Source: a virus. From it: 64,000 nt of DNA. Each line of letters starts with the position of its first letter. The first letter of the stretch is position 1. The DNA is taken from positions 27,613 to 91,612 of IMG/VR virus record IMGVR_UViG_3300033412_000004; one strand, written 5' to 3'. This document shows positions 29,748 to 60,866 of this stretch, one piece after another. Position numbers and translations under genes: made by a program. The notes below the pieces were generated by a model, which saw only the letters and a list, made by a program, of their open reading frames with translations, did no database searches and was not told the DNA's origin.

Positions 29748-29779
29748 ACACCGGCGCTGCCGGGGAGTAGGTTGTGCGC

Positions 29780-46807: not shown

Positions 46808-47782
46808 ATGAAGCGTGTCATCGTCACCGGGGGCGCAGGATTCTTGGGCAGTCACCTATCAATGCACCACCTGGAGCGAGGCGACAAGGTCCTCTGCATT
46901 GACAACTTCTGTTCCGCGTTGGGAACCATCAGCAACCCATCACCTCACTTCAGAGAGTTGCTCAGCTTCGAGAACTTCAGCTACATGCCGTCGGACATCG
47001 CCGGTCCCAACATGCTGCAGGAGCTCAGCGACTGGGAAGGGGACCTCATCTACAACTTCGCCTGTCCAGCCTCACCGCCGCGGTACCAAGCGATGCCGGT
47101 CGAGACGATGTTGACCTGCGTCGTCGGCACCCGCAACATGCTGGAAGTGGCCCGACGGACGGGAGCAGTGTTGGTCCATGCATCGACCAGCGAAGTGTAC
47201 GGCGATCCGGAACACAGCCCACAGGCCGAGAAGTACCGAGGTTGCGTCAACTCATACGGACCGCGGGCATGCTACGACGAAGGCAAGCGTGCCGCCGAGG
47301 CCTTGTGCTACGACTACCTGAACAAGTACGACGTTGATGCGCGGATGGTCCGCATCTTCAACACCTACGGGCCCAACATGGACCCCGATGACGGTCGCGT
47401 CGTCAGCAACTTCATCTGCCAGGCACTGCGTGGTCAGCCCATCACCATCTACGGCAACGGCCAACAGACGCGCAGCTTCTGCTACGTCAGCGACTTGGTA
47501 CGAGGCATCACCAACCTGGGCGAGTACAGCCGCAATCCCCACACTCCCGTCAACATGGGCAACCCCGTCGAGTTCACCATCCGCGAACTGGCGGAGAAAG
47601 TGCAGGACCTGCTCGGCGCCGTTCGCTTCAAGGCGATGCCGCTGCCCATCGATGATCCGCTTCAGCGCCGGCCTGACATCAGCTTGGCGACGGACCTGTT
47701 GGGTTGGGAGCCGAAGGTGCAGCTCGAGGAGGGATTGAGTCACACCATCAGTTACTTCGAGAAGATGGTGAAGAAGAAGTAA
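46808..47782 (+). CDS. UDP-glucuronate decarboxylase (UDP-xylose synthase)
   Basis: GGAGFLG, ACPASP..YQ..PVET, STSEVYGDP, PRACYDEGKR, RIFNTYGP, DGRVVSNF, DDP..R.PDI. Confidence 0.9.
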   Translation: MKRVIVTGGAGFLGSHLSMHHLERGDKVLCIDNFCSALGTISNPSPHFRELLSFENFSYMPSDIAGPNMLQELSDWEGDLIYNFACPASPPRYQAMPVETMLTCVVGTRNMLEVARRTGAVLVHASTSEVYGDPEHSPQAEKYRGCVNSYGPRACYDEGKRAAEALCYDYLNKYDVDARMVRIFNTYGPNMDPDDGRVVSNFICQALRGQPITIYGNGQQTRSFCYVSDLVRGITNLGEYSRNPHTPVNMGNPVEFTIRELAEKVQDLLGAVRFKAMPLPIDDPLQRRPDISLATDLLGWEPKVQLEEGLSHTISYFEKMVKKK

Positions 47783-47803
47783 GGAAGCAAAGCGTGGTGA
47801 GAA

Positions 47804-48145
47804 TCAGTGCGTTGCGATCACCTGTTTGAGGTGGTCCCACGATTCGATGACGATGTACTCTTCTTCGTTGTGATTTTTGGGTGAGTAGGAGAAACTGATT
47901 CCGGCGTCGAAGCAGGAGTTGTCGTTGCCGGACACATCGAGAGTCCAACCGTAGCGAATGTCAGCCCACTTGTCCTTGTAGACCCGTTCGTTGCACACCT
48001 CCTTCGTGGATTGGTCAGACCAAACGTGGTAGACGCCGTCGCCCTCCCACCGTTCGGTGGATTGGATGTTGGTGTGGCCCAGGTTGGTGAGAAAGTTGGT
48101 GATGAGGTTGATGAGGGTTTGGGTGGAGTGGTTGAAATCGCTCAT
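47804..48145 (-). CDS. Hypothetical protein
   Basis: MSDFNHST...; TATCCT 7 nt upstream on minus strand. Confidence 0.55.
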   Translation of the reverse strand: MSDFNHSTQTLINLITNFLTNLGHTNIQSTERWEGDGVYHVWSDQSTKEVCNERVYKDKWADIRYGWTLDVSGNDNSCFDAGISFSYSPKNHNEEEYIVIESWDHLKQVIATH

Positions 48146-48231
48146 GACCATCAGGATACCACAGATCCTGCACACGAGATAGTCCTGTTCGACCCGCACA
48201 CGTGTGGTACCATGTTCCTTCCGGTGCCGCC

Positions 48232-48237
48232 TAGTTA
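48232..48237 (+). promoter_or_regulatory. Example of the putative late promoter TA(C/G/A)TTA
   Basis: TAGTTA 5 nt before ATG; AT-rich motif recurring before leader-bearing genes. Confidence 0.55.
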
Positions 48238-48242
48238 CTGAC

Positions 48243-49241
48243 ATGCGGTTCAGGATCAGTGAGCTCCGCCAGCTCATCAGTGAAGCCCTTCGAAAGGCGT
48301 ACGAGATCTTGGGTGTGAGCCCGGATGCTAGCGCCGAGCAGATCAAGAAGGCGTACCGTGAAAAGGCGATCGCGCTGCATCCTGACCGCAATGCTGGCAA
48401 GGACACAGGAGCTGACATGGTCAAGCTCAATGTGGCCTACGGACTCCTGTCCGACCCTGACAAGCGCCGCAAGTACGACCTAATGGGCGACAAGACCCTG
48501 GGTGATGCAGGGGGCGGATTTGGCTACGGTGGGCCCCCGCCGCCGCGGCGACCCGATCCCTACTCACCTCCGCCTCGTCCGCGTCCTCAGCCTCCGCCGC
48601 CTCGTCCGCAATCACCGCCCCCGCCGCGTTCGACGAAGCGCTATTTCACCTACTACGGCTCGTCGCCGGGCGGTCGTGGCTCTCGCAAGTTCTGGTGGGT
48701 TGAACCCAACTTCGACGGCAACTACAGCGTCAGGGTGGGCTTCGGTCGCATCGGGTCGCCGGGCCAGACGCAGGTCCAAGGCTTCGGCAGCAGCTCGGAG
48801 ATGTGGAAGTGGTTGTCGCGGATGATCAACTCGAAGCTCGACAAGGGCTACCGCGAGACCAACGCCCCGCCGGGCGGCGGTCCCGCACCGCGCAATGCTG
48901 CACCCCCTCCGCCTCCTCCGAAGGCGAAGGCAGAGCCCGCGCCGGGTCCGGAGAAGCCCAAGGAGCCATCGGCTCCGCGCGATCCCAACACCTACAAGGT
49001 CTACGGTCGCAAGGGAAGCGCACCAGTTCACACTCGATACAAGAGCAAGGTCTATGTCGGTCCGCCCGACAGCAAGTTCAAGTCGGGCCAGCGCGCCACC
49101 GTTGCCTTGGGCAGCGATGGCCGCCTCAGCATCCATGACCCCGCAACGGGTCACACGCAACATTGGACGGCAGAAAGCTTCGCCGCGCTCATTGATGAGC
49201 TGTTGGTCGAGGACTTGCTTTCTGTCGGCCGAAAGGAATAG
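48243..49241 (+). CDS. J-domain + WGR-like domain + shared C-terminal domain protein
   Basis: Leader MRFRISELRQLISE; YEILGV..IKKAYR...HPD; KFW...FGRIG..GQ...KLDKGY; YKVY domain. Confidence 0.85.
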   Translation: MRFRISELRQLISEALRKAYEILGVSPDASAEQIKKAYREKAIALHPDRNAGKDTGADMVKLNVAYGLLSDPDKRRKYDLMGDKTLGDAGGGFGYGGPPPPRRPDPYSPPPRPRPQPPPPRPQSPPPPRSTKRYFTYYGSSPGGRGSRKFWWVEPNFDGNYSVRVGFGRIGSPGQTQVQGFGSSSEMWKWLSRMINSKLDKGYRETNAPPGGGPAPRNAAPPPPPPKAKAEPAPGPEKPKEPSAPRDPNTYKVYGRKGSAPVHTRYKSKVYVGPPDSKFKSGQRATVALGSDGRLSIHDPATGHTQHWTAESFAALIDELLVEDLLSVGRKE

Positions 49242-49249
49242 TTACTGTC

Positions 49250-49510
49250 ATGAGCCTATCCGTTCTCGAAGTCGGTGCATACCTTTCAGCTGGTCTCCTC
49301 GCGGCGACCCGGCTGCTCTCAGTCGCGAAGCCGCTCTGGGACAAGTTGCCCAGGGTCGTCGCCGTCGCCCTCCCGGTCGTCGTGGCGTCCTTGCCTCTCC
49401 TCGCGGAGAAGGCGGGACTCATCAAGACCGAGGTCGACCTGGTCGGTTTTGGCGTGACTGCTCTGGCGCTCCTGGTGCCGGGCATCGCCGAGGCTGAGAA
49501 GGACGCCTGA
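49250..49510 (+). CDS. Small membrane protein (holin-like)
   Basis: Three hydrophobic segments; TAGTTA 5 nt upstream. Confidence 0.45.
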   Translation: MSLSVLEVGAYLSAGLLAATRLLSVAKPLWDKLPRVVAVALPVVVASLPLLAEKAGLIKTEVDLVGFGVTALALLVPGIAEAEKDA

Positions 49511-49564
49511 TCCTCAACATCGCAGCGAATTGGCCCAGCAATGGGCCTTTCGCGTTTAAGCGGT

Positions 49565-49593
49565 TGTAGCTTCGAGGCCGCGCGGGGTAAGAT
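49565..49593 (+). promoter_or_regulatory. dnaE promoter (leaderless class)
   Basis: TGTAGC-N17-TAAGAT-N5-ATG. Confidence 0.6.
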
Positions 49594-49598
49594 GCGGC

Positions 49599-52500
49599 AT
49601 GCCGCGCGTCCCGGCCCGCTTTGTCGGCCTCCACAATCACACAGGTTTTTCACCCTTTGACGGATTGGGATATCCGGACGAGCACTTCCGTTGGTGCCTA
49701 GAGAACGGCATCGACGCTCACGCGATCACTGAACATGGGAACATGAACTCATATGCCCACGCTCAGCTGTGGGTCGAGGATTGGGCCAAGAGCAACAAGG
49801 ACAAGAAGTTCAAGTACATTCCAGGCGTTGAGGCGTACTTCCACCCCGACCTGGACCAGTGGCAGCGCGACAAGCTCGATGCCGACCAGGCCGCAGTCGA
49901 CAAGAAGGCGGCCGAGAAGCTCCGCAAGCAACAGGAGAAGCTGCAGACCAAGATCATCGCCGTCACCGACGAGAACGATGAGACTGAGGACATCGAGATG
50001 TCCAACGCTCTCACCATCGAGAATGAGGAAGAGAGCAAGAGCACCAAGCACTTCAACCCGGTCAACCGGCGCCACCACTTGGTCCTGCTGCCGAAGAACC
50101 AGAAGGGCCTCCAGAAAATCTTTGGGGCCGTCAGCCAAGGCTACCTCAAGGGATTCTACAAGTTCCCCAGAATCGACACCAGCATGTTGAAGGAGGCGGC
50201 CAAAGGCGGTGACGTCATCGCCGTCTCAGCCTGCATCGCTGGAATGCCAGCGTTCAACGTCTTCCGGGAGCTGCAGAAGATCAAGTTCGAGGAGATGTCG
50301 CACAAGCTCCTTGACGACAAGGTGCTGCTGGAGAAGTGCGTCACCGCAGTGGGCAACGCCTACGACCTGATGGTGGGAGCGCTGGGCGAGGGCAACTACT
50401 TCCTAGAGCTGCAGTTCAACAAGTTGGAGGCGCAGAACCTCGTCAACCGCGCCATCATCGAGTTCGTCCGCCGCAACGGCCTGCAGAAGCAGCTGGTGGT
50501 GACGTGTGATGCCCACTATGCCAAGCCCGACTTCTGGCGTGAGCGTGAGCTCTACAAGAAGCTGGGGTGGATGAACTACAAGACAATCACCGCCGATGCA
50601 CTGCCCAAGTCGAGGGAAGAGCTGAAGTGTGAGCTGTATCCGAAGAACGCCCAGCAGGTGTGGGATGAGTACCAGCGGGCGAAGGTGGGTGCTGATTGGT
50701 ACGATGACGACCTCGTCGCCGATGCCATCGAACGGACCCACGACATCGCCCACATGGTCATCGGTGAGGTGCCTCCCGACCGGACACCCAAGTTTCCTAA
50801 CGAGCGGTTGATCCCGCCGGGTGAGAAGTCGTTCAACTACCTCGTCAAGCTGTGCAAGGAAGGTTTGGCCAAGCGAGGCCTGCAGGACAAGGAGGAGTAC
50901 CGCGCCCGCCTCCTCGAAGAGCTTGGCGTCATCAAGACGATGAAGAACTCTGACTACTTCATCTCCTACCAGAAGATCATGGAGCTCGCCCGCGAGGTGT
51001 GCCTCGTCGGACCGGCCCGCGGCTCCGGTGGTGGCTCACTCGTTGCCTACGTCCTGTACATCACCGACTTGGACCCGCTGAAGTGGGATTTGCCGTTTGC
51101 CCGCTTCCTCAGCGTCTACCGCAAGGGAGCGCCGGACATTGACACCGACCTGGCCGACCGCGACAAGGTGCTGGAGCAGCTCCGCGCCTTCTTTGGTTGG
51201 GACAACGTCGTTCCCATCAGCAACTACAACACCTTCAAGCTGAAGACGCTGGTCAAGGACATCGGCAAGTTCTACGGCGTCTCCTTCGAGGAAACCAACG
51301 CGGCGACTCGCACCGTGGAAGAGGAAGTCCGCAAGGCGACCACCAAGCACGGTGATGACAAGAATCTATTCGTCTTGAAGTACGAAGATGCCATCGTGCA
51401 CTCAAAAAGCTTCAAGGCGTTCATCGACAAGTACCCGCAGGTCGCAGAATCTATTCAGACTCTATTCAAGCAGAACCGCTCGTTGGGCCGCCACGCTGGT
51501 GGCGTGCTCATCGCCGACGACCTGCCCAACAAGATGCCGTTGGTCACGTCGAAGGGAAAGGGTGACGTCAGAGAGCCACAGTCGCCGTGGGTCGAAGGCG
51601 TCAACTTCAAGCACCTAGAGAAGATCGGCGAGTTCATCAAGTACGACCTGCTCGGCCTTGAAACCCTACGCCTCATTGAGCGTACCATCGAACTGATCCT
51701 CATCAAGGAAGGCAATCCCTCCCCGACCTTCAAGGACGTCAAGGCGTGGTACGAGGCACACATGCATCCGTCGGTCATTGACTTCGACGATCCGAAGCCG
51801 TACGAGGTCTACGCGGAAGGAAAGTGGGCCGGCATCTTCCAGCTGACGTCGCAGGGTGCTCAGCGTCTCTTCATCAAGGCCAAGCCGCAGAGCGTCATCG
51901 ACATCGCGACCCTGACGTCAATCTACCGGCCTGGTCCACTAGCGGCCAACGTCGACAAGCTCTACTTGGAAGCCCGTGAAGGCAAGGAGCTGGATTGGGG
52001 CGACCTACGCATCAACGCCATCCTCAAGAAGACCAACACCTGCATCATCTTTCAGGAACAGGTCATGGAGTTGGCTGAGAAGTGCGCCGGCTTCCCCAAG
52101 GAGCAGTGCGACGAGGTGCGCCGCGCCATCATGAAGCGCAGCATCTCCGGCGGTGAAGCGGCCAAGAAGGCGGCACAGGAAACTCGCGACGGCTTCGTCA
52201 AAGGCTGCGTCAAGAACGGCTACACTGAGTCCGTCGCCAACAATCTCTACGACAAGATCCTCTACTTCGCTGGTTACGGCTTCAACAAGTCGCACGCTGT
52301 GGCCTATGCCATCGACAGCTTCTGGTGCTCTTGGTTGATGACGTACTATGAAGAGCAGTGGATGTCAGCCTACCTGGAGGCGATGTCGGGCACCCCGGAG
52401 AAGCGAGCCAAGGCGTTCGGTGAAGCGCGGGACCTGGGTTACAAGTTCGTGGACATCGACATCAATCATGCCAGCAAGGCGTGGTCAGTGTTGCCTGGCA

Positions 52501-53234
52501 AGCGGTTCATGCCCAGCTTCCTGTCGTGCAAGGGCGTGGGCGAGTCAGCCGTCGATGAAATCCTGGCCAACCGTCCGTACAACACCATCGAAGAGATGTT
52601 GTGGAACGAGGACGGAACTTGGAAGCACAGCAAGTTCAACAAGAAGGCATTGGAGGCGCTCATCCGCATCGGCGCCTTTCAGTCGATGGACCTCATCGGC
52701 CCGGACAAGCTGTTCGCCAACTACCACCACATGCACCACGTCCTGATCGAGTACCAGGACCTCATCAAGAAGACGTCGAAGAAAGACCCACACATCGGTC
52801 GCAAGAACTTCTATGAACTGGCACGGAAGACTCACGCTGAAACTCCAGCGTGGACGGTACAGGAAGAGGCCGAGTTTCAGGTGGAGTACTTTGGTAGCGT
52901 CGATGTCAACAAGATGTACGGCCGCCGCATCGCCTGGTGCAAGCAGAAGGGAGTCAAGCCCATCGATGCGTTGGAACTGGGCGAGGAGGCCAACGTCTGG
53001 TTCTGCGTCCAGGAGGCGATCGTCAAGAAGACTCGTAACGGCAAGGTCTACCTGCAGCTTCAGGTCGTCACCGACTCGGGGAAGGCTCGAGTCAACGTCT
53101 GGGGTTGGAAGGACACGACGACTGAGTTCGAGCCGTATGAGTTCAACCTGGCACAGGCCAAGCGTGACGACTACGGCTGTTCGACGGGTTCGTGGAAATT
53201 GAAGCGACGCATTCCGGAGGTGAGTGATGAGTAA
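49599..53234 (+). CDS. dnaE: DNA polymerase III alpha subunit (family C)
   Basis: PHP HNHT..S..DG, TEHG, CDAHY; RGSGGGS, PDIDTD, HAGG, KYDLLGL, RPGP, YGFNKSHA. Confidence 0.96.
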   Translation: MPRVPARFVGLHNHTGFSPFDGLGYPDEHFRWCLENGIDAHAITEHGNMNSYAHAQLWVEDWAKSNKDKKFKYIPGVEAYFHPDLDQWQRDKLDADQAAVDKKAAEKLRKQQEKLQTKIIAVTDENDETEDIEMSNALTIENEEESKSTKHFNPVNRRHHLVLLPKNQKGLQKIFGAVSQGYLKGFYKFPRIDTSMLKEAAKGGDVIAVSACIAGMPAFNVFRELQKIKFEEMSHKLLDDKVLLEKCVTAVGNAYDLMVGALGEGNYFLELQFNKLEAQNLVNRAIIEFVRRNGLQKQLVVTCDAHYAKPDFWRERELYKKLGWMNYKTITADALPKSREELKCELYPKNAQQVWDEYQRAKVGADWYDDDLVADAIERTHDIAHMVIGEVPPDRTPKFPNERLIPPGEKSFNYLVKLCKEGLAKRGLQDKEEYRARLLEELGVIKTMKNSDYFISYQKIMELAREVCLVGPARGSGGGSLVAYVLYITDLDPLKWDLPFARFLSVYRKGAPDIDTDLADRDKVLEQLRAFFGWDNVVPISNYNTFKLKTLVKDIGKFYGVSFEETNAATRTVEEEVRKATTKHGDDKNLFVLKYEDAIVHSKSFKAFIDKYPQVAESIQTLFKQNRSLGRHAGGVLIADDLPNKMPLVTSKGKGDVREPQSPWVEGVNFKHLEKIGEFIKYDLLGLETLRLIERTIELILIKEGNPSPTFKDVKAWYEAHMHPSVIDFDDPKPYEVYAEGKWAGIFQLTSQGAQRLFIKAKPQSVIDIATLTSIYRPGPLAANVDKLYLEAREGKELDWGDLRINAILKKTNTCIIFQEQVMELAEKCAGFPKEQCDEVRRAIMKRSISGGEAAKKAAQETRDGFVKGCVKNGYTESVANNLYDKILYFAGYGFNKSHAVAYAIDSFWCSWLMTYYEEQWMSAYLEAMSGTPEKRAKAFGEARDLGYKFVDIDINHASKAWSVLPGKRFMPSFLSCKGVGESAVDEILANRPYNTIEEMLWNEDGTWKHSKFNKKALEALIRIGAFQSMDLIGPDKLFANYHHMHHVLIEYQDLIKKTSKKDPHIGRKNFYELARKTHAETPAWTVQEEAEFQVEYFGSVDVNKMYGRRIAWCKQKGVKPIDALELGEEANVWFCVQEAIVKKTRNGKVYLQLQVVTDSGKARVNVWGWKDTTTEFEPYEFNLAQAKRDDYGCSTGSWKLKRRIPEVSDE

Positions 53235-53766
53235 GCAACGACTGGTGTTCTTCGTCGGTCCTGACATGTGTGGCAAGACCGAGATCTCGAAGGAGACGTC
53301 GCGTCGCCTGGAGATTCCGTACTTCAAGGCGACCTCGGAGCACACGTCCTTTCTGTCGTCCAGGGTGTCGAGGAACGACCAGTTTCTCAACCAACTGCGG
53401 TTCGCCGACCCACGTGTCCTCGACATCCTCCGCCAGACGGGCCACAGCGTCATCTTTGACCGAGGCTTTCCGTGTGAATACGCCTACTCCAAGGTGTTCG
53501 GCCGCGAGACCGACGAGGTGATGCTGCGACACGTCGACGAGGCGTACGCTGCTTTGGGCGCCATCATCGTCTTCTGTCACCGGTCATCCTACGCCGGCAT
53601 CACCGATGACCTCGACCCCACGGTCGGTCAGGAGCTGCTGGACAAGCTCCACGCCGCGTATGAGGACTTCGCCAGTTGGACCAAGTGTCGCCTGCTGCGG
53701 CTCAATGTCGATGATGAGAACCTGGACCGGGAGGTGCGGGACATCATCAACTTCGTGAAGCCATGA
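53227..53766 (+). CDS. Deoxynucleoside monophosphate kinase (second; candidate hm-dCMP kinase)
   Basis: GPDMCGKT P-loop, FDRGFPCEYAY. Confidence 0.75.
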   Translation: MSKQRLVFFVGPDMCGKTEISKETSRRLEIPYFKATSEHTSFLSSRVSRNDQFLNQLRFADPRVLDILRQTGHSVIFDRGFPCEYAYSKVFGRETDEVMLRHVDEAYAALGAIIVFCHRSSYAGITDDLDPTVGQELLDKLHAAYEDFASWTKCRLLRLNVDDENLDREVRDIINFVKP

Positions 53767-54212
53767 AGGCGTGCTTGGGATGTGGCAAGGAGGTCGAACC
53801 GTACCTCAACTTCTGCAGTTGGGAGTGTCACATCGATCTCACCAAGCGAGAAGGTGGCAAGGTCCACTGTCCCAACGGATTGCCCATTCGCTGCATCACT
53901 CGTGATGGCCTGATGATCGAATGTGAACATGGCGACCACCCGGATTACAAGTTTCCAGTCGTCGCACAATACGTGGGCAGCGATCCCAACAAGTTCAAGG
54001 ACGAGCACCACGACAGCAGCACCGAGCTCCATGCGCTCATCTACACCGACGGTGTCGTCGCTCTGACGATATACGAGTGTTGCTACACGTTGTGGAGTGT
54101 CAGCGACGGCTCCGTATTGAGGGAGCACTTGTGGTACAAGAAAGGCGAGTGGCGACTCAACTTGTTGTCGCTCACACAGATCCAGGAATTCGCAAAGGGG
54201 AAGACGACATGA
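53763..54212 (+). CDS. Hypothetical Cys/His-rich protein
   Basis: CLGCG..FCS.EC; ATGA overlaps on both sides. Confidence 0.6.
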   Translation: MKACLGCGKEVEPYLNFCSWECHIDLTKREGGKVHCPNGLPIRCITRDGLMIECEHGDHPDYKFPVVAQYVGSDPNKFKDEHHDSSTELHALIYTDGVVALTIYECCYTLWSVSDGSVLREHLWYKKGEWRLNLLSLTQIQEFAKGKTT

Positions 54213-55531
54213 AGAGGATGTTGATCCAGACGCAGCTGTCCAACTACGACACCAAAGGCAAGTTCATCCTGGAGTGCGACTCGGGTTGGCAGATGGTGAT
54301 GGGTCGGGTCCGCGTCATGTTGAAGCTGTGTCCCGACCTCGACATCACAGTGATGGGCCCTGACATGGACGAAGGCCATGAACAGTGCATCACCCACCCG
54401 GTCGATGTCAATCCCGACTTGTGGGAAAAGTACGGCGCTGACGGCGAGAATCGCCTCCACTACATCGGCCACCGCATCATTCCCAACGCCTTGGTGACCC
54501 GGTACGACTTCGACTGGACCGGGTTGGCCGTCGGCCTCAACCTGGGCATGCAGAAGATCAATCAGGCGCCCAGGTGGGACATCGTCTACATCAACGACCC
54601 GATGCACCTTCGCAACTTCCGGGCAATGTTCTTCGTCGTCGCCGGCTACACACCCAAGTTCGTCGTCCACTCCCACTTCATCGACAATCCAACGTGTCCC
54701 AAGTTCCCGAAGGAGGCGTCGCTGTGGTTGGGCCAGTGTGAGGCGGCGATCAGGGCCGACGTCAACTTCTGGCAGTGTGAGTCAGCGATGGAGGTCTTCT
54801 TCCAGGAGATGAAGGACTTCTTCTCTCAGTCGGTCGTCGATTACACTCGGGCCAAGTCGTCGCCTTGGGACGACGGCTACTCCTCCGAGGAGATCAACGT
54901 ACCGGTCGACATGTCGAACCTGCGGTTCGACCCAAACGTCTTCCAGCAGTGGCGAGAGCAGGGGAAGCGAGTCATCTTCGTTCCCAACCGCATCGGCGGC
55001 CGTGGCAGGTCGAGCGACTATACCAACTGCGGCAAGTTCATGTTTGACATCCTGCCGCAGCTGCGGAAGCGAAGGGATGACTTCGTCGTCCTGGCGGGCA
55101 ATCCAAGTCAGAAGTTCTTCAACCATGAGCTGGAGGCTGAGTGTGGGCCCAACGGCTACGTCAGCCTAGTGCCCGATGCCTTCAACCGTGACGAGTTCAA
55201 GTACGTGGCCCGCAACAGCGCCATCGCCGTCGGCCTCTACGACCAGGACAGCTACGGCGGTACCGTGGCGAGGGAGTGCATCGACCTCGGGTGTTTGCCT
55301 CTGTGGATCGACAACTACGAGTATGCTCGGTTGGCACAAGGCTATCCCTTCTTGGCCAAGCCCGACTTTTCGGACATCGTCGATAAAGCTAGCTTCCAAC
55401 TGGAGGTGTTGAGGAGCGGGGATGCTCGTGGCGCCGCTCGGTGGTTGCAACTCCTCCGTGACACGGTCAAGCGCCGGTGTTCATACGAGGAGACGACTCC
55501 GGAGGCAATGAGGCGCATGGGCCTGCTCTGA
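54209..55531 (+). CDS. GT-B glycosyltransferase (candidate DNA glycosyltransferase)
   Basis: VVHSH, IFVPNR, DSYGG.VAREC..LGCLP C-terminal motif; co-transcribed with dnaE and kinase. Confidence 0.6.
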   Translation: MKRMLIQTQLSNYDTKGKFILECDSGWQMVMGRVRVMLKLCPDLDITVMGPDMDEGHEQCITHPVDVNPDLWEKYGADGENRLHYIGHRIIPNALVTRYDFDWTGLAVGLNLGMQKINQAPRWDIVYINDPMHLRNFRAMFFVVAGYTPKFVVHSHFIDNPTCPKFPKEASLWLGQCEAAIRADVNFWQCESAMEVFFQEMKDFFSQSVVDYTRAKSSPWDDGYSSEEINVPVDMSNLRFDPNVFQQWREQGKRVIFVPNRIGGRGRSSDYTNCGKFMFDILPQLRKRRDDFVVLAGNPSQKFFNHELEAECGPNGYVSLVPDAFNRDEFKYVARNSAIAVGLYDQDSYGGTVARECIDLGCLPLWIDNYEYARLAQGYPFLAKPDFSDIVDKASFQLEVLRSGDARGAARWLQLLRDTVKRRCSYEETTPEAMRRMGLL

Positions 55532-55592
55532 CACTTTTTGGTTTCCAAAGTGAACTAGTCATGGTAAGGTGCGCCTCATAAGGAGGTTCACC

Positions 55593-55877
55593 ATGAGCCA
55601 GAATCTGAAGAAGTGGGACGAGAACACCATCCGTTCGTACTTGCAGGAGGAGTTCCCTCAAGCGGGCGTCGAGTTGGTGACGAAGGTCACTGCGGCCATC
55701 ATGGCCGAAGGGCAAGACCGCATCGAGAACGTGCTTGGCACGTATCGCAGCGGCAAGCAATTCGGTTCCCAGAGCCGCTTCGGCGAGTTCAATCACACCA
55801 ACAGCCTCCAGGTCGGTGCAATGCTCGAAGGCGTTCATCGTCGGTTCATCGGAGGCACCTACAACCGCGAACGGTAG
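55593..55877 (+). CDS. Hypothetical protein
   Basis: Strong SD TAAGGAGG; followed by terminator. Confidence 0.7.
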   Translation: MSQNLKKWDENTIRSYLQEEFPQAGVELVTKVTAAIMAEGQDRIENVLGTYRSGKQFGSQSRFGEFNHTNSLQVGAMLEGVHRRFIGGTYNRER

Positions 55878-55900
55878 CAGAACCTCCTCTGTGACCGGGT

Positions 55901-55932
55901 GCCCCCGGGGCGAAAGCTCCGGGGGCTTTTTT
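55901..55932 (+). terminator. Rho-independent terminator
   Basis: GCCCCCGGGGC-GAAA-GCTCCGGGGGC followed by T6. Confidence 0.9.
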
Positions 55933-55970
55933 ACGTGAGTACACTTGCGTTCTGTGAGTTACGATGAAAC

Positions 55971-56501
55971 GTGAGCTGTTACTGCGGTGACAAGGACTGT
56001 CCTCAGTGCAACCCCGAGGCTAAGAAGCGTTTCTGGCCCGAAAAGGAAAAGAAGTCGCCGCTGGAGGGTCTTGCAGAAGCGTTGAAGAAGATGACTCCTG
56101 AAGAGAAGGAGAAGTGGCGCAATGAAGCCTTGGAGCGAGCCAAGAAGGCTCGCGAGGACGAGGAGCGCAAACGCAACGAGCCTCCCAAGTCAAAGACTGG
56201 GACGTGCGTCGTCTGCCGCGGCAAGGTCGAGGGTGAGTATGTCCACGGTCTACGTCCAGGAGTGGACTCGCGCTTCGTCCCAATCGGCCCGGGCGGTCGC
56301 CAGTACTACGGTTGGCAGTTCAAGGGGTACCACTGCACTCGGTGCGGGCTCTCCTACAAGTTCCCACCGCCAGACGGAATAATTACTGGTCAGGGAGACG
56401 CGCATGAAACTGTCGGACCTTCGGAAACTGATCAAGGAAGAGATCGAACAAGCCCTCGACGAAGCAGAAGGGGCAGGAAAGTCAGCTCCGAAGACGTTTG
56501 A
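55971..56501 (+). CDS. Hypothetical Cys-rich protein
   Basis: Several CxxC motifs; 3' end overlaps next gene. Confidence 0.55.
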   Translation: MSCYCGDKDCPQCNPEAKKRFWPEKEKKSPLEGLAEALKKMTPEEKEKWRNEALERAKKAREDEERKRNEPPKSKTGTCVVCRGKVEGEYVHGLRPGVDSRFVPIGPGGRQYYGWQFKGYHCTRCGLSYKFPPPDGIITGQGDAHETVGPSETDQGRDRTSPRRSRRGRKVSSEDV

Positions 56502-57237
56502 GGAGTTCCGCAAGGCGATCGGCGCCGCGGCCAAACAGGCTGGCGCTCCTGAGGACTTCGTTGATGAAATCCTCGACGTTGGCTACGAGGGTGGTGGCGT
56601 AGCCTCCGCGTTGGGCAGCGGCTGGAACAACTACTCGTACGAGCTGCGCGACATCAAGGACCCCGCTGAACTGTGGGACACCTTCATCTACTACGCTCAC
56701 GATGCGATCGTTGACGCTGTCGGCGAGTACACGAATGCATGGAACTACGCTCCGGGTCGAAAGGCCGGCGGACGCTTCGACGCTGGTGACTTGGCGGGCC
56801 GGGTCGAGAAGATCTTGAGCGGTGCCAAGATGAAGCGCGCCGACAAGGGTCCGCTGAAGCGGGTGTCAGGCGACATCAACGCGCAGGACATCATGTCGAA
56901 GCTCGCGGCGATCATGAAGAGCGAGTCCAAGACGACCAAGACCCGAATGGGCAAGGTCTCCGGCAATGCCAGCTCGAATCCGGCGCTGGACATTTCTGAT
57001 CCGAAGGTCAAGGACGTCAATGGGATGATGGCCTTTGCGTCCGAGCAGGTCGCCAAGATTCTGACGGAGCTGGGCTGCATTGACGTCAAGGAGCACAACG
57101 TCGGCGGTGAAGACGCAGGCGTCACGGCGAAGGTCCATGACGTCGATTCAGGCATTCGCAAGAACATTTATGTGGACTTCGAGAACGTGGGTCCGGGCAA
57201 GATGCGTGTCTGGGTCGGTGTTGAGGAAGGCCGCTGA
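56404..57237 (+). CDS. Late protein with LRKLIKEE leader
   Basis: MKLSDLRKLIKEEIE; TAATTA at 56380; SD GGGAG. Confidence 0.7.
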   Translation: MKLSDLRKLIKEEIEQALDEAEGAGKSAPKTFEEFRKAIGAAAKQAGAPEDFVDEILDVGYEGGGVASALGSGWNNYSYELRDIKDPAELWDTFIYYAHDAIVDAVGEYTNAWNYAPGRKAGGRFDAGDLAGRVEKILSGAKMKRADKGPLKRVSGDINAQDIMSKLAAIMKSESKTTKTRMGKVSGNASSNPALDISDPKVKDVNGMMAFASEQVAKILTELGCIDVKEHNVGGEDAGVTAKVHDVDSGIRKNIYVDFENVGPGKMRVWVGVEEGR

Positions 57238-57263
57238 ACTCTTGACAACGTGGGGCGTACAAT
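57235..57263 (+). promoter_or_regulatory. Epimerase/hydroxymethylase operon promoter (leaderless class)
   Basis: TGAACT-N17-TACAAT-N6-ATG. Confidence 0.6.
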
Positions 57264-57269
57264 CGCTCC

Positions 57270-58220
57270 ATGCGAGTTCTTGTCACCGGCGGAGCCGGTT
57301 TCATCGGATCGAATTTGGTCGGTCGTCTCCTTGCCGAAGGAGATCGAGTCGACGTTGTGGACGACTTGTCCAACGGACACCTGCAGTTCGTCCCCAAGGG
57401 ACAGAACTGTCGAGTTGAAGACTTCGCCAGTCCGGCGTCGCTGCAGCGAATCCACGACGGCAACTACGAGGTGATCTACCACCTGGCGGCACTGCCACGG
57501 GTCAGCTACTCTGTCGAGAAGCCGTTCGACACCCACCTCGTCAACGTCTGTCGCACCGTCAGGATGCTGGATTCAGCCCGAGGCAACGTCGGCCGCATCG
57601 TGTTCGCCTCGTCCTCGTCGGTCTATGGTGGCGCTGACAAGCTGCCCACCCCGGAGACCTTCGAGCGCAATCCTCGCTCGCCTTACGCCCTCCAGAAGGC
57701 CCAGGGCGAGGACTACCTGAAGATGTTCTATGAGTTGTACGGCCTCGACTCGGCCTGCATGCGATTCTTCAACGTCTTCGGACCCAACCAGCTCGGTGAT
57801 TCACCCTACGCCACCGCGGTGTCGGCGTGGCTGTCGGCGATCAAGAAGGGAAAGCCCATGCGGTCCGACGGCGACGGCACCCAGAGCCGCGACATGTGCT
57901 ACGTCGACAATGTCGTCGATGCCTGCATCCGTGCGGCCCGGCACCCGGAACCTCTGAAGGCCGAGTGCTTCAACGTGGCGTGCGGCGACAGGACGACCAA
58001 CAATGAAATCCTCGAGTACTTGATGAAGCGGTACCCGGGAGCAACGAAGGTGGATGCACCATGGCGACCGGGAGATGTGATGCACACGCAGGCCAACGTC
58101 AACAAGGCGAAGAAGGTTCTCGGGTACAAGCCGTTGGTCAAGTTCTGGGACGGCCTGGAGCGGACCATCGAGTGGGTCGAGAACACGCCCGAGTTCACGT
58201 CGCTCGGACTACGGATCTGA
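57270..58220 (+). CDS. NAD-dependent nucleotide-sugar 4-epimerase (extended SDR)
   Basis: TGGAGFIGS, SSSSVYG, PYALQK, FNVFGP, GDGTQSRD. Confidence 0.9.
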   Translation: MRVLVTGGAGFIGSNLVGRLLAEGDRVDVVDDLSNGHLQFVPKGQNCRVEDFASPASLQRIHDGNYEVIYHLAALPRVSYSVEKPFDTHLVNVCRTVRMLDSARGNVGRIVFASSSSVYGGADKLPTPETFERNPRSPYALQKAQGEDYLKMFYELYGLDSACMRFFNVFGPNQLGDSPYATAVSAWLSAIKKGKPMRSDGDGTQSRDMCYVDNVVDACIRAARHPEPLKAECFNVACGDRTTNNEILEYLMKRYPGATKVDAPWRPGDVMHTQANVNKAKKVLGYKPLVKFWDGLERTIEWVENTPEFTSLGLRI

Positions 58221-58222
58221 AG

Positions 58223-58408
58223 ATGTTGCGCAGCAAGCTGTTGAAGATCGCCGCCGCAGCGTCTCGCTATGAGCGGAATTCCATACGACCCGAGCACAAT
58301 GGCGGGCGAGCGCCGCTGTCCGAACACGAGCGCGCAGCTCAAAAGCTGATTGACGCTGTAAAAGAGCTGCCTGAGGAAGTACGAGAACTGTTGGAGATGA
58401 CAGAATGA
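58223..58408 (+). CDS. Hypothetical protein
   Basis: Fills gap; ATGA overlap with next gene. Confidence 0.45.
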   Translation: MLRSKLLKIAAAASRYERNSIRPEHNGGRAPLSEHERAAQKLIDAVKELPEEVRELLEMTE

Positions 58409-59166
58409 GAAACAACACCACACAGGACATCAGGCTCGAGTTCGCACGGTTGCTCCGCGAGGGCAAGTTCACCAGCGTCAACCGCGAGGCGTCGATGACG
58501 TCCTTGGTGGGTAGTCGGACGATCGAGATCGTCGGTGCCAATCTCATTGCGTCGGATGACGCGCTCTTCGGTAAGGTGGACTGGGACTACATTCACCGCG
58601 AAGAGCAGTGGTACGACTCACAGTCGCTGAACGTCAACGACATTCCCGGTGGCGCTCCCACCGTGTGGAAGGCAGTCGCTGACAAGACGACGGGCGAGGT
58701 CAATAGCAACTACGGTTGGACGACCTACAGCCCGGAGAACGGGAACCAGTACTCGAAGGTGCTGGCCGAGCTCAAGAAAAATCCGGAGAGCCGGAGGGCA
58801 GTGGTCATCTACACCCGTCCGTCGATGTGGGAGGACTACAATAGGGGCGGCCGCAGTGACTTCATGTGCACCAACGCAGTGCAATACCTCGTCCGCGATG
58901 GCGCTGTCCATGCCTGCGTCCAGATGCGGAGCAACGACGCCATCCTCGGCTACAAGAACGACCGGGCTTGGCAACAGACAGTGCTGACGCGGTTGGCGCG
59001 TGACCTGGAGCAACCTGTGGGCAACCTGTACTGGTCGGCAGGCAGCCTCCACGTCTATGAGCGTCACTTCTACCTGGTCGATCACTTCGGCAAGACGGGT
59101 GAGCTGTCGATTCCCAAGTCGCAGTACCGTGAGCTCTATCCCACTTCCCCCTACAGCAAGGAGTAA
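58405..59166 (+). CDS. dCMP hydroxymethyltransferase (T4 gp42-like, thymidylate synthase fold)
   Basis: NSNYG, SRRA, DFMCTNAVQY, MRSND..GYKND.AWQ (Asp at the specificity position), GSLHVYERHF. Confidence 0.85.
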   Translation: MRNNTTQDIRLEFARLLREGKFTSVNREASMTSLVGSRTIEIVGANLIASDDALFGKVDWDYIHREEQWYDSQSLNVNDIPGGAPTVWKAVADKTTGEVNSNYGWTTYSPENGNQYSKVLAELKKNPESRRAVVIYTRPSMWEDYNRGGRSDFMCTNAVQYLVRDGAVHACVQMRSNDAILGYKNDRAWQQTVLTRLARDLEQPVGNLYWSAGSLHVYERHFYLVDHFGKTGELSIPKSQYRELYPTSPYSKE

Positions 59167-59717: not shown

Positions 59718-59718
59718 C

Positions 59719-60294
59719 ATGACCTGCATCGTCGGACTTGAACACGAGGGAATAGTCTACATCGGTGGCGACAGCGCCGGTGTTGCGGAGTACGACATCT
59801 GTACCCGCAGCGATGAGAAGGTCTTCTTCAATGATGAAGTCCTGATGGGCTTCACGTCGTCGTTCCGGATGGGACAGCTGCTGCGGTACGCCTTCACGGT
59901 GCCCGAGCAGTCGAACAAGAAGGAAGACATGGCGTACCTGGTGACTGACTTCGTCGACGCCATCAGGTTGTGCTACCGAGAGAAAGGCTTCATCAAGAAG
60001 GAGAATGAACAGGAGGAGGGCGGCACTTTCCTCTTGGGCTACCGCGGACACCTCTACGTGATTGAGGGCGACTTCCAGGTCGGCAAGCCTGGTGAGGGCT
60101 ACGCCGCCGTCGGCTGCGGCGCCAACATTGCGTTGGGAGCGATGTACGCTTCGCAATCGTGGAAAGATCCAGAGCTGCGCATTCGCACCGCACTCGAGGC
60201 GGCTGTCGCCCATAGTGCGGGCGTTCGTCCCCCGTTTACGGTGCTCAAGCTCGAATCGGTGAGTACTGTACAACAGGGGAAGCGCAAACGATGA
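59719..60294 (+). CDS. HslV/proteasome-beta-like Ntn hydrolase (tandem paralog)
   Basis: (M)TCIVG, GGDS, KVF, VGCG, V.PPF. Confidence 0.75.
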   Translation: MTCIVGLEHEGIVYIGGDSAGVAEYDICTRSDEKVFFNDEVLMGFTSSFRMGQLLRYAFTVPEQSNKKEDMAYLVTDFVDAIRLCYREKGFIKKENEQEEGGTFLLGYRGHLYVIEGDFQVGKPGEGYAAVGCGANIALGAMYASQSWKDPELRIRTALEAAVAHSAGVRPPFTVLKLESVSTVQQGKRKR

Positions 60295-60866
60295 ACAACC
60301 CGACGTTCACGGTCTTTGTGGGACCGATGTTCTCATCAAAAACGACGCGCCTACTGTCGGCGCTCGAACGGTACAAGTACCAGCACAAGAAGGTGGTCGT
60401 CTTCAAACCTGACATCGACGACCGCTACGGTGCCGACAGTGTGGTGTCGCACAGCGGTTGGAAGGCTGCTGCCATCACCGTCAAGAAGGGCGCTGACATC
60501 CTGCAGGCGCTGTCGGGCGACGACGGGGCGCCTGACGTCATTGCCGTCGATGAAGCGTTCATGATCCCGGGTATCACTGAGGTGCTCGTCTGGATCTACA
60601 AATTGGGCATCAGCGTCGTCGTGTCGACGTTGGACATCTCAGCCACGGGCAAGCCGTTCCACGAGGTGGAGAAGATGCTGCCTTGGGCGACACACGTCGA
60701 GAAGTGCAGCGCTGTCTGCACCGTCTGTGGCCGTGATGCGTTCTACACCCACAAGAAGCAGGTGGACGGTGAAGAGATTCAAGTTGGCGGTGCTGAACTC
60801 TATGAGCCTCGCTGCTTCCAACACCACCTCGCCATCGACAATCGACCCCGCATCCATAGCGATTGA
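60291..60866 (+). CDS. tdk: Thymidine kinase
   Basis: GPMFSSKT, FKP.IDDRY, VDEA, C..CG, VGG.E.YEPRC. Confidence 0.92.
   Translation: MNNPTFTVFVGPMFSSKTTRLLSALERYKYQHKKVVVFKPDIDDRYGADSVVSHSGWKAAAITVKKGADILQALSGDDGAPDVIAVDEAFMIPGITEVLVWIYKLGISVVVSTLDISATGKPFHEVEKMLPWATHVEKCSAVCTVCGRDAFYTHKKQVDGEEIQVGGAELYEPRCFQHHLAIDNRPRIHSD

What the first reader, a model, noticed from the sequence alone, without database searches (positions are those of the whole stretch)
46808..59166. Probable sugar-modified hydroxymethylcytosine pathway using UDP-xylose or UDP-arabinose
Seen: a gp42-like enzyme with GYKND, where Asp replaces the Asn of dUMP-specific ThyA (T4 gp42 has GFRND). ThyX separately supplies dTMP. 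A second dNMP kinase and a GT-B gene are coupled directly behind dnaE. A 4-epimerase shares an operon with the hydroxymethylase, a UDP-glucuronate decarboxylase lies upstream, and an all-alpha pyrophosphatase (26909) and dCMP deaminase are present. Known: T4 makes hm-dCMP, destroys dCTP and glucosylates hmC; RB69-like phages arabinosylate it. UXS makes UDP-xylose, and C4-epimerisation gives UDP-L-arabinose. Inference: the genome carries xylosyl- or L-arabinosyl-h(m)C made by a UDP-GlcA route, in a DnaE-using high-GC jumbo phage. I do not know of this combination being described.
Basis: partly seen in the sequence, partly recalled or inferred. Interest (0 to 1): 0.85.

Follow-up and report, generated by a model that had tools for sequence, protein, structure and literature searches.

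The report
Jumbo-phage sugar-hydroxymethylcytosine DNA modification cassette
This fragment of an uncultured ~350-kb soil phage carries a T4-type enzyme for making hydroxymethylcytosine, a kinase, a previously unnamed sugar transferase and two sugar-nucleotide enzymes. Together they most likely coat the phage's DNA cytosines with a sugar, possibly a five-carbon one, but no chemistry has been measured.

Summary

**Shown by sequence or fold**
- 58405-59166 is a T4 gp42-type dCMP hydroxymethylase (E 5e-74). It has the Cys/Asp/Asp/Asp signature and lacks the D169N mark of 5-hydroxycytosine synthases.
- 46808-47782 is a UDP-xylose synthase (E 5e-93 to human UXS1).
- 57270-58220 is a GalE/WbpP-type 4-epimerase.
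- 54209-55531 has no family hit but models as a GT4-like GT-B transferase (Z 29).

**Comparative evidence**
- In 32 related giant-phage contigs the order DnaE, kinase, transferase, epimerase, hydroxymethylase is kept.
- In lower-GC relatives the transferase slot holds a different GT-B family that resembles T4 alpha- and beta-glucosyltransferases. The two families never occur together.
- This makes glycosylated hydroxymethylcytosine the best reading (about 0.6).

**The pentose claim is weaker (about 0.3)**
- UXS tracks this transferase family, but imperfectly.
- The epimerase is a backbone gene with one active-site signature whether UXS is present or not.
- UDP-glucose dehydrogenase is not on this 25%-complete contig.

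RB69 is now known to carry arabinosyl-5-hydroxycytosine, not hmC. The scan has already flagged this cassette type in several other genomes. Verdict: a new variant of a known kind.

The parts
46808..47782 (+). UDP-glucuronate decarboxylase (UDP-xylose synthase, UXS)
   Evidence: E 5.3e-93 to human UXS1, with ASTSEVYGDP, YDEGKR and DGRVVSNFI conserved. Orthologues of 50-65% identity in 13 of 15 related contigs.
49599..53234 (+). DnaE-type replicative polymerase; anchors the cassette
   Evidence: tblastn to DnaE-like Pol III alpha of phages. 42-75% identical in relatives.
53227..53766 (+). Tmk/dNK-like nucleotide kinase; candidate hm-dCMP kinase
   Evidence: Hits: AAA_28, phrog_761, profile to deoxyguanosine kinase 2jaq E 4e-5 and YorR 3kb2, hhalign 95.6% to RB69 gp45. 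Present in 31 of 32 loci. Start overlaps the DnaE stop.
53763..54212 (+). 149-aa Cys-rich (zinc-ribbon-like) ORF coupled to both kinase and transferase; role unknown
   Evidence: ATGA overlaps at both ends. Homologues in 8 of 32 loci. Only a weak DUF7575 hit.
54209..55531 (+). GT-B (GT4-like) glycosyltransferase, 'family A'; proposed hmC-DNA glycosyltransferase
   Evidence: No Pfam, NCBIfam or PHROG hit. AF2 pLDDT 90. Foldseek E 1.7e-12 to GlgM (6tvp) and 3.8e-12 to MshA. VIA Z 29.2 to BshA, rmsd 3.4 over 354 residues. More than 400 metagenomic homologues. None found in GTDB genomes.
57270..58220 (+). NAD-dependent UDP-sugar 4-epimerase (GalE/WbpP type)
   Evidence: Pfam Epimerase E 6e-49. PDB 6wjb E 6e-51, WbgU and WbpP. 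S/Y/K/N triad plus Thr at the E. coli GalE Y299 position. Present in 30 of 32 loci.
58223..58408 (+). 61-aa ORF bridging epimerase and hydroxymethylase
   Evidence: Read from the sequence; its stop overlaps the ATG of 58405.
58405..59166 (+). dCMP hydroxymethylase (T4 gp42 type)
   Evidence: E 4.6e-74 to 1b49. D/C/D/D at the ThyA L143/C146/D169/N177 positions. Sits in an 18-row clade with T4 gp42, SH-aLRT 99. 25% identical to RB69 gp48.
26909..27295 (+). All-alpha NTP pyrophosphohydrolase; candidate dCTPase
   Evidence: dUTPase_2 and PRA-PH hits, phrog_12184 and phrog_173. Conserved in 5 of 5 near-complete relatives, matching from residue ~31 of the 26834 ORF. Specificity not determined.
62964..63434 (+). 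dCMP deaminase
   Evidence: PF00383 E 7e-22. Present in 28 of 32 loci.
60291..60866 (+). Thymidine kinase
   Evidence: PF00265 E 9e-41.
23700..24626 (+). ThyX (flavin-dependent thymidylate synthase)
   Evidence: PF02511 E 1e-15.
25019..25606 (+). Second thymidylate-kinase-like kinase, near ThyX (about 0.4 kb downstream, a small ORF between)
   Evidence: PF02223 E 2e-10; phrog_761.

Best explanation
The phage replaces cytosine in its DNA with 5-hydroxymethylcytosine before replication and then attaches a sugar to it.

1. The gp42-type enzyme (58405) converts dCMP to hm-dCMP. The enzyme family and its diagnostic residues are shown; activity is inferred.
2. The Tmk/dNK-like kinase (53227) phosphorylates hm-dCMP. 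This is inferred from homology to the kinase in the RB69 cytosine-modification cluster.
3. The all-alpha NTP pyrophosphatase (26909) and the dCMP deaminase deplete dCTP and divert dCMP. This is inferred by analogy with T4.
4. DnaE incorporates hm-dCTP.
5. After replication the GT4-like GT-B enzyme (54209) transfers a sugar from a UDP-sugar to the hydroxymethyl group. The fold is shown; the DNA target is inferred from synteny and slot replacement.
6. The donor pool is shaped by the phage's own UXS (UDP-GlcA to UDP-xylose; family shown) and a broad GalE/WbpP-type 4-epimerase.

My best guess for the sugar is a pentose, either xylose or, after 4-epimerisation, L-arabinose. I put that sub-claim at only about 0.3. 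The core claim, sugar-tagged hmC made by this cassette, I put at about 0.6.
For: **Hydroxymethylase**
- E 4.6e-74 to T4 gp42.
- D/C/D/D signature identical to T4. RB69 gp48 has E/C/N/D, and PMC13326640 section 28 gives D169N as the mark of 5hodCMP synthases.
- Falls in the clade with T4 gp42, SH-aLRT 99.

**Transferase**
- Confident GT-B model.
- Z 27-29 to BshA, PimA, MshA and SPS. These PDB entries (3mbo, 2gej, 3c4q, 6kih, 7qsg, 8ixp) are the ones reported as top hits for the DNA glycosyltransferases of DLP3, RB69 and RL38J1.

**Synteny**
- DnaE, kinase, GT, epimerase, TS homologue in 30-31 of 32 GT-sampled loci at 39-80% protein identity.
- Genes are translationally coupled here.

**Slot replacement**
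- Among the 53 DnaE-sampled loci with at least 9 kb downstream, 15 carry this GT family, 24 carry a different ~345-aa family and none carry both.
- That second family models as GT-B, with T4 BGT, T4 AGT and the phage HY126 GT among its top PDB hits.

**Sugar genes vary with the GT family**
- UXS occurs in 12 of 15 family-A loci and 2 of 24 family-B loci.
- UDP-galactopyranose mutase occurs in 16 loci, all of them family B.
- UXS orthologues are in 13 of 15 whole contigs of family-A relatives and in none of 5 large low-GC relatives.

**Other support**
- The kinase profile matches RB69 gp45 (hhalign 95.6%).
- Published precedent: GT plus epimerase pairs install Hex, HexNAc or HexA on 5hmC, and the GT depends on the epimerase (bioRxiv 10.1101/2023.12.21.572611).
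- The GT family was not found in 185,579 prokaryote genomes by the pattern scan.
Against: - No chemistry exists and the phage is uncultured.
- The transferase's acceptor is inferred only from context.
- T4 AGT and BGT are not among the top 50 structural matches of this transferase. It shows no detectable sequence similarity to RB69 gp47 or to family B.
- All comparative counts come from related genomes, so they are not independent events.
- Against a pentose specifically:
  - One 78%-complete relative (G005) has this GT family but no UXS orthologue.
  - L059 and L083 have UXS with the other GT family.
  - The epimerase has the same active-site signature in UXS-bearing, mutase-bearing and other relatives.
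  - No UGDH is present on this contig. UGDH-like genes also occur in 4 of 5 UXS-less relatives.
  - These phages carry further SDR and sugar gene clusters elsewhere that could be the real users of UDP-xylose.
- The dCTPase assignment is generic.
Confidence: 0.6

Rival explanations
1. hmC is made and is glycosylated by 54209, but with a hexose or N-acetylhexosamine (for example galactose or GalNAc) supplied by the 4-epimerase from host UDP-Glc or UDP-GlcNAc. UXS serves another purpose, such as a second sugar added by a transferase elsewhere in the missing 75% of the genome, virion glycosylation, or draining host UDP-GlcA.
For: - The epimerase is the gene directly adjacent to the GT and the TS homologue in most relatives. 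It is kept in about 46 of 52 DnaE-sampled loci with or without UXS.
- It has a WbpP/WbgU/PelX-like profile with a small Thr at the gatekeeper position.
- G005 has this GT family without UXS.
- Known GT plus epimerase pairs give Hex, HexNAc or HexA on 5hmC.
Against: - UXS is retained at 50-65% identity in 13 of 15 family-A contigs. It lies on the same strand just upstream of DnaE, and directly adjacent in L004, L059 and L083.
- Family A correlates with UXS, while family B correlates with the mutase.
Confidence: 0.25
2. The transferase and the sugar-nucleotide enzymes do not act on DNA. They glycosylate virion proteins or remodel host surface polysaccharide, for example to exclude superinfection. 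The DNA carries plain hmC or another hmC derivative.
For: - A comparative study of jumbo phages read their epimerase/GT clusters as capsular-polysaccharide modification systems (PMC7824862).
- Virion glycosylation is known in mycobacteriophages (cited in PMC12619734).
- The closest viral structural matches are Arthrobacter phage GTs of unknown target.
- GT4 enzymes normally act on small molecules, lipids or glycans.
Against: - The GT sits between the nucleotide kinase and the hydroxymethylase in an early replication operon, translationally coupled behind DnaE.
- The same slot holds a T4 AGT/BGT-like enzyme in relatives.
- The same kinase, GT and TS-homologue grouping marks proven DNA-glycosylation clusters in RB69, DLP3 and RL38J1.
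- T4 itself has the order pol, 42, beta-gt.
Confidence: 0.12
3. The TS homologue makes a different base: 5-hydroxy-dCMP as in RB69, or hm-dUMP or dTMP.
For: RB69-type enzymes were long annotated as dCMP hydroxymethylases and also carry the N177D change.
Against: - Asp is retained at the D169 position, where all tested 5hodCMP synthases have Asn.
- Only 25% identity to RB69 gp48, against about 50% to T4 gp42.
- PDB entries 9iqu and 9iqc score E 5e-12, against 5e-74 for T4 gp42.
- Asp at the N177 position argues against dUMP as substrate.
- ThyX already supplies dTMP.
Confidence: 0.03

Closest known systems
Phage T4 glucosyl-5-hydroxymethylcytosine system (gp42, gp1, gp56, cd, alpha-GT and beta-GT)
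   Same: - Orthologous dCMP hydroxymethylase with identical diagnostic residues.
- dCMP deaminase, TK and an NTP pyrophosphatase are present.
- The hydroxymethylase and the GT lie downstream of the replicative polymerase, as in T4 pol, imm, 42, beta-gt.
   Different: - DnaE instead of a family-B polymerase.
- The kinase is Tmk/dNK-like, not shown to be gp1-like.
- The transferase is a GT4-like family with no detectable sequence relation to AGT or BGT.
- The phage encodes its own UXS and 4-epimerase, so the donor is probably not plain host UDP-glucose.
- ThyX instead of Td.
Arabinosyl- or hexosyl-5-hydroxycytosine clusters of RB69, DLP3 and Rhizobium phage RL38J1 (PMC13326640)
   Same: - Grouping of a Tmk-like nucleotide kinase, a GT-B transferase and a TS homologue with dedicated NDP-sugar genes.
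- The kinase is homologous to RB69 gp45.
- The transferase's PDB neighbours are the same entries.
- UDP-Galp mutase in relatives parallels RL38J1.
   Different: - The base is predicted to be hmC, not 5hoC (Asp rather than Asn at the D169 position).
- The sugar route is UDP-GlcA decarboxylation and 4-epimerisation, not ribulose-5-P to Araf-1-P to UDP-Araf.
- No sequence similarity between the transferases.
Subclass II GT plus sugar-epimerase clusters on 5hmC (Pyle et al., bioRxiv 10.1101/2023.12.21.572611; Cell Rep 2024)
   Same: A phage GT-B paired with an SDR sugar epimerase acting on 5hmC. In that work GT activity depended on the epimerase, and BshA and MshA were structural neighbours of the GT-B enzymes.
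   Different: - There, 5hmC is made after replication by a C5-methyltransferase plus a TET-like dioxygenase. Here it is made before replication by a gp42-type enzyme.
- The products reported there were Hex, HexNAc and HexA. The words pentose, xylose and arabinose do not occur in that text.
- No UXS is described there.
Shewanella phage Thanatos pentose-modified cytosine (PMC12838424)
   Same: A pentose-type sugar on cytosine and a phage enzyme able to make UDP-xylose.
   Different: - Thanatos makes UDP-xylose with a pyrophosphorylase from xylose-1-P, not with UXS.
- Its TS homologue produced 5hodC in the assay of PMC13326640.
- It is a T4-like phage, not a DnaE jumbo phage.

Membership tests
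T4 gp42-type dCMP hydroxymethylase | Thymidylate-synthase fold with full-length similarity to gp42 | tested here: met
   PF00303 E 1.3e-16. E 4.6e-74 to 1b49 over residues 8-242. In the clade with T4 gp42, SH-aLRT 99.
T4 gp42-type dCMP hydroxymethylase | Catalytic Cys (ThyA C146), Asp at ThyA N177 (dCMP specificity), acidic residue at ThyA L143 (water access) | tested here: met
   SDFMCTN and GYKND are identical in pattern to T4.
T4 gp42-type dCMP hydroxymethylase | Produces 5hm-dCMP from dCMP and methylene-THF | not testable with these tools
   Needs an enzyme assay or the in vivo plasmid assay.
5-hydroxy-dCMP synthase (RB69 gp48 / DLP3 gp80 type) | Asn at the ThyA D169 position (D169N) | tested here: not met
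   The window has MRSND and RB69 has MRSQN. The criterion comes from PMC13326640.
UDP-glucuronate decarboxylase (UXS) | Specific full-length similarity to characterised UXS, well above other extended SDRs, with the catalytic motifs | tested here: met
   315 bits to human UXS1, against 108 bits for the next family. TSE, YDEGK and RVVSNF segments are identical. NCBIfam has no UXS model that it reaches.
UDP-xylose 4-epimerase (dedicated, Uxe/MUR4-like) | Epimerase specialised for UDP-Xyl/UDP-L-Ara and linked to UXS | tested here: inconclusive
   The S/Y/K/N triad is present. However, the same orthologue with the same Thr gatekeeper occurs in relatives without UXS and in relatives with UDP-Galp mutase. 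No characterised Uxe sequence was available for comparison.
GT-B glycosyltransferase, GT4-like | Two Rossmann-like domains superposing on GT4 enzymes | tested here: met
   pLDDT 90. Z 29.2 to BshA 6n1x (rmsd 3.4, 354 aligned), 27.7 to PimA, 27.6 to MshA.
GT-B glycosyltransferase, GT4-like | Matches the Pfam Glycos_transf_1 family models | tested here: not met
   No Pfam, NCBIfam or PHROG hit at E 0.01 or below. It is a fold-level relative, not a sequence-family member.
GT-B glycosyltransferase, GT4-like | Conserved acidic donor-binding motif (E-x7-E) in the C-terminal domain | tested here: inconclusive
   Invariant D347, G350, G351, T352, R355 and E356 resemble the motif with altered spacing. 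This was read by eye and not superposed.
T4 alpha-/beta-glucosyltransferase (DNA GTs) | Closest structural neighbours are AGT or BGT | tested here: inconclusive
   Not among the top 50 rows for the 54209 model. They do appear for the alternative family B of relatives.
T4-like hmC replacement system | dCTPase that removes dCTP | tested here: inconclusive
   An all-alpha NTP-PPase is present and conserved. Its specificity is unknown, and the only PDB hit is a dimeric dUTPase at E 0.004.
T4-like hmC replacement system | Glycosylation of hmC in DNA | not testable with these tools
   Needs nucleoside mass spectrometry or an in vitro transfer assay.

The most novel reading that the evidence does not exclude
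The DNA of this widespread clade of ~300-370-kb soil phages carries 5-(xylosyl- or L-arabinosyl-oxymethyl)cytosine. The pentose would be made by a phage-encoded UDP-GlcA decarboxylation route (UXS, with or without the 4-epimerase) and installed by a new GT4-like DNA glycosyltransferase family. This would be the first pentose reported on hmC and the first use of UXS in DNA modification. Sister lineages swap in a BGT-like transferase plus UDP-galactofuranose synthesis, so the cassette would act as a glycan-diversifying module.
Probability: 0.3. Interest if true: 0.75.

Novelty: new variant of a known kind. Interest (0 to 1): 0.6.

Why it matters
Sugar-coated cytosines are a main way phages escape restriction enzymes, CRISPR nucleases and type IV systems. 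Each new sugar has brought new defence and counter-defence biology and new enzyme tools.

- This cassette is conserved across dozens of uncultured giant-phage genomes.
- It uses a transferase family with no name in any library searched here.
- It pairs alternative transferases with alternative sugar-nucleotide genes (UXS, or UDP-galactopyranose mutase).

That pattern predicts a family of different glycosyl-hmC bases that can be tested by expressing four or five genes in E. coli.

A pentose on hmC made from UDP-glucuronate would be a chemistry not found in the literature searched here. If the sugar turns out to be an ordinary hexose, the finding is another member of the T4-like theme with a new transferase.

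Tried and rejected
**Tools unavailable**

**Searches that found nothing**
- Megablast of the region against GenBank phages: no match.
- tblastn of the transferase against GenBank phages: no match.
- Pfam, NCBIfam and PHROGs: nothing for 54209, 53763, 55569, 55971 or 56404.
- hhalign of the transferase profile against RB69 gp47 and against family B: no similarity.
- T4 AGT and BGT are not listed in the top 50 structural matches of 54209. This does not exclude a relationship.
- Pattern scan of GTDB genomes for the transferase: no relative. Only two peptide patterns were used, so sensitivity is limited.
- UGDH (PF03721) on the phage's own contig: none. The contig is only 25% complete.

**Tests that did not discriminate**
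- UGDH as a marker of the UXS route was rejected. UGDH-like genes are also present in 4 of 5 UXS-less relatives.
- Isoelectric point as a test for DNA binding was rejected. 54209 is acidic (5.6), but so are the RB69 gp46/47 pieces (5.0-5.4) and family B, while T4 BGT is 9.05.

**Readings rejected**
- 5-hydroxycytosine: rejected on the D169 residue, on identity and on the tree.
- 59172 and 59689 as pathway members: rejected. They are HslV/BPH-like Ntn hydrolase paralogues.
- 55569-57237 as part of the cassette: rejected. Homologues of 55971 and 56404 are shared with only one relative, and 55569 with none.

The careful maximum-likelihood tree did not finish, so only the quick tree is reported.

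Full report
**What the window is.** The window is the last 64 kb of a 91.6-kb IMG/VR virus contig that CheckV rates 25% complete. Its relatives reach 267-369 kb, and one has terminal repeats and is rated 100% complete. 'Jumbo phage' is therefore a fair inference and not a direct observation. GC is about 0.59 throughout. Nearly all genes are on the + strand. There is no nucleotide match to GenBank phages. The DnaE is only 26-28% identical to the best cultured-phage DnaE.

- *Hydroxymethylase (58405-59166).* It is a TS-fold protein. It matches the T4 dCMP hydroxymethylase crystal structure at E 4.6e-74 and ordinary thymidylate synthases only at about 1e-9. It is about 53% identical to gp42 of many Tevenvirinae.
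- *UXS (46808-47782).* It matches human UDP-glucuronate decarboxylase at E 5e-93, sixty orders of magnitude better than any other SDR class, with the catalytic segments conserved.
- *Epimerase (57270-58220).* It is an extended SDR closest to UDP-GlcNAc/GalNAc and UDP-Glc 4-epimerases such as PelX-like 6wjb, 6dnt, WbgU and WbpP.
- *Junctions.* The kinase ATG at 53227 overlaps the DnaE stop. The kinase, a 149-aa Cys-rich ORF (53763) and the transferase (54209) are chained by ATGA overlaps. The epimerase is tied to the hydroxymethylase through a 61-aa ORF that ends in an ATGA overlap.
- *Other genes.* ThyX, a second Tmk-like kinase, an all-alpha NTP pyrophosphatase, TK and dCMP deaminase are all present.

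RB69 and DLP3 carry arabinosylated 5-hydroxycytosine, not hmC. It is made by TS homologues that share the N177D and L143D/E changes but have Asn at the ThyA D169 position (PMC13326640). I tested this.
- The window protein reads MRSND, like T4. RB69 gp48 reads MRSQN.
- It is 25% identical to RB69 gp48 and about 50% identical to T4 gp42.
- In a quick ML tree it sits in an 18-member clade with T4 gp42 (SH-aLRT 99), far from RB69 gp48.
- Across 72 distinct TS homologues found behind DnaE in this phage group, 69 carry the T4 signature D/C/D/D. This includes a second, longer class (280-360 aa) that replaces the gp42 type in some close relatives.

hmC is therefore the predicted base.

**The transferase.** 54209 has no hit in Pfam, NCBIfam, PHROGs or GenBank phages. 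It does have more than 400 metagenomic homologues at 60-80% identity.
- An AlphaFold model built on 28 homologues is confident (pLDDT 90).
- It is a GT-B fold closest to GT4 retaining enzymes: Foldseek E 2-4e-12 to GlgM, SPS and MshA, with OtsA close behind at 5e-12, and VIA Z 29.2 to BshA, 27.7 to PimA, 27.6 to MshA and 27.3 to SPS 6kih.
- These are the same PDB entries listed as top hits for the DNA arabinosyl-, galactosyl- and glucosyl-transferases of DLP3, RB69 and RL38J1.
- A shared fold does not show the acceptor.

**Comparative genomics.**
- *Sampling by the transferase* gave 32 IMG/VR loci. The order DnaE, kinase, GT, epimerase, TS homologue, (two HslV-like genes), TK, dCMP deaminase is kept in almost all: kinase 31/32, epimerase 30/32, TS 30/32. 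In many loci GT, epimerase and TS are directly adjacent. The 1.7 kb between GT and epimerase in this window is an insertion shared with at most one relative.
- *Sampling by DnaE instead* gave 79 loci, of which 52-53 had at least 9 kb downstream. This shows a wider group that includes lower-GC (0.39-0.49) members. Fifteen loci carry this transferase ('family A'). Twenty-four carry a different ~345-aa protein next to the kinase ('family B'). None carry both, and 14 carry neither within 10 kb.
- *Family B* gives weak Glyco_trans_1_2 hits. Its model (pLDDT 91) lists T4 beta-glucosyltransferase, T4 alpha-glucosyltransferase and the phage HY126 GT among its best PDB matches.

Two unrelated GT-B families thus alternate in one slot between a nucleotide kinase and a cytosine hydroxymethylase, and one of them looks like the T4 DNA glucosyltransferases. 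This is the strongest argument that the slot encodes the DNA glycosyltransferase. T4 itself has pol, imm, 42, beta-gt. RB69 has pol, sugar genes, TS, GT, kinase. The kinase profile here matches RB69 gp45 at 95.6% hhalign probability.

**Which sugar?**
- *For a pentose.*
  - UXS orthologues (50-65% identity) are in 13 of 15 whole contigs of family-A relatives. They lie on the same strand within about 1-20 kb upstream, and directly before DnaE in several.
  - They are absent from five large low-GC relatives, two of them at least 96% complete.
  - UXS accompanies family A in 12 of 15 loci and family B in 2 of 24. UDP-galactopyranose mutase occurs in 16 loci, all family B.
- *Against a pentose.*
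  - G005 (78% complete) has family A without UXS. L059 and L083 have UXS with family B.
  - All of these genomes are related, so the counts are not independent.
  - The epimerase is close to a backbone gene, present in about 46 of 52 loci. It has one and the same S/Y/K/N plus Thr-gatekeeper signature in UXS-bearing, mutase-bearing and other relatives. This looks like a broad WbpP/GalE-type enzyme, not a dedicated UDP-xylose 4-epimerase.
  - UGDH is not on this contig. UGDH-like genes exist far from the cassette in 5 of 5 family-A relatives and also in 4 of 5 UXS-less relatives.
  - These phages hold further SDR and sugar clusters elsewhere.

I therefore rate 'sugar-tagged hmC' at about 0.6 and 'the sugar is xylose or L-arabinose' at about 0.3.

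**Literature.** I found no paper linking a UXS route to phage DNA modification.
- Thanatos makes UDP-xylose with a pyrophosphorylase.
- Pyle et al. showed GT plus epimerase pairs putting Hex, HexNAc and HexA on 5hmC made by MT plus TET. That text contains no mention of pentose.
- Iyer et al. read jumbo-phage sugar clusters as surface-polysaccharide systems, which is the main non-DNA rival.

**Earlier notes of this scan.** The scan has already flagged the same kind of cassette in several other genomes. Two of them share words with this transferase. I checked two of their claims here.
- The epimerase is a backbone gene: confirmed.
- Some relatives carry a BGT-like transferase: confirmed for family B.

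**Verdict.** This is a new variant of the T4-type hmC-glycosylation strategy, with a new transferase family and a phage-encoded UDP-xylose synthase. The identity of the sugar is open and directly testable.

Noticed in passing
window 59172-59717 and 59689-60294: Two tandem paralogues with an invariant N-terminal Met-Thr (MTCIVG...). Their profile matches HslV and the beta-proteobacterial proteasome homologue BPH (E 5e-9). They are kept next to the hydroxymethylase in 22 of 32 relatives. A phage-encoded Ntn-hydrolase or proteasome-like pair of unknown role.
   Followed up: partly
L001, L003, L006-L008, L011, L013-L015, L019-L021, L025, L026, L028-L032 (DnaE region): In many relatives the DnaE reading frame is broken into 2-4 pieces separated by 0.5-3 kb at recurring positions (about residues 213, 510, 686/710 and 812/890). 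This suggests inteins, introns or homing-endonuclease insertions. The DnaE in this window is uninterrupted.
   Followed up: no
L001, L007, L009, L011, L014, L016, L018, L021, L022, L026, L027, L030-L032 and most of L055-L126: A second, longer class of TS homologue (280-360 aa, about 30% identical to the gp42 type) occupies the same slot in close relatives. It carries the same Asp/Cys/Asp/Asp signature, so the hydroxymethylase gene itself has been swapped within the cassette.
   Followed up: partly
L064-L071, L076, L077, L079, L091, L096, L100, L115, L116 (e.g. L065:14583-15809): UDP-galactopyranose mutase (GLF, E 1e-77) sits inside the hydroxymethylase, GT, kinase, epimerase cassette of lower-GC relatives. 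This predicts a galactofuranosyl cytosine derivative and parallels RL38J1.
   Followed up: partly
L041-L045 (relatives G001-G005): The NDP-sugar dehydrogenases of relatives are mostly short (285-353 aa) and cover only profile positions ~2-295 of 413. They appear to lack the C-terminal domain. G003 also has a full-length 441-aa copy next to the short one.
   Followed up: no
window 56404-57237: This inserted 277-aa ORF begins MKLSDLRKLIKEEIEQ. That matches the 'KLTxxxLRxIIxEE' N-terminal leader which other first-reader notes on this genome propose as a capsid-targeting tag.
   Followed up: no
window 53763-54212: A Cys-rich 149-aa ORF (CxxC ... CxxxC at the N-terminus) is translationally coupled between the kinase and the transferase. 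Homologues are in the same position in 8 relatives. It could be an accessory subunit of either enzyme.
   Followed up: no
window 25603-26226, 38486-39292, 39834-40613: Three DNA methyltransferase genes (one MT-A70, two N6_N4_Mtase) sit in a genome predicted to replace cytosine. They presumably methylate adenine. How they interact with hmC glycosylation is unknown.
   Followed up: no
window 28258-31311, 36304-37086, 61224-62426: An RNA-repair-type set: RlaP-like nucleotidyltransferase, PNKP (kinase plus HAD phosphatase), RNA ligase and a CCA-adding/poly(A) polymerase-family enzyme. A fatty-acid-hydroxylase-family protein lies at 29238.
   Followed up: no
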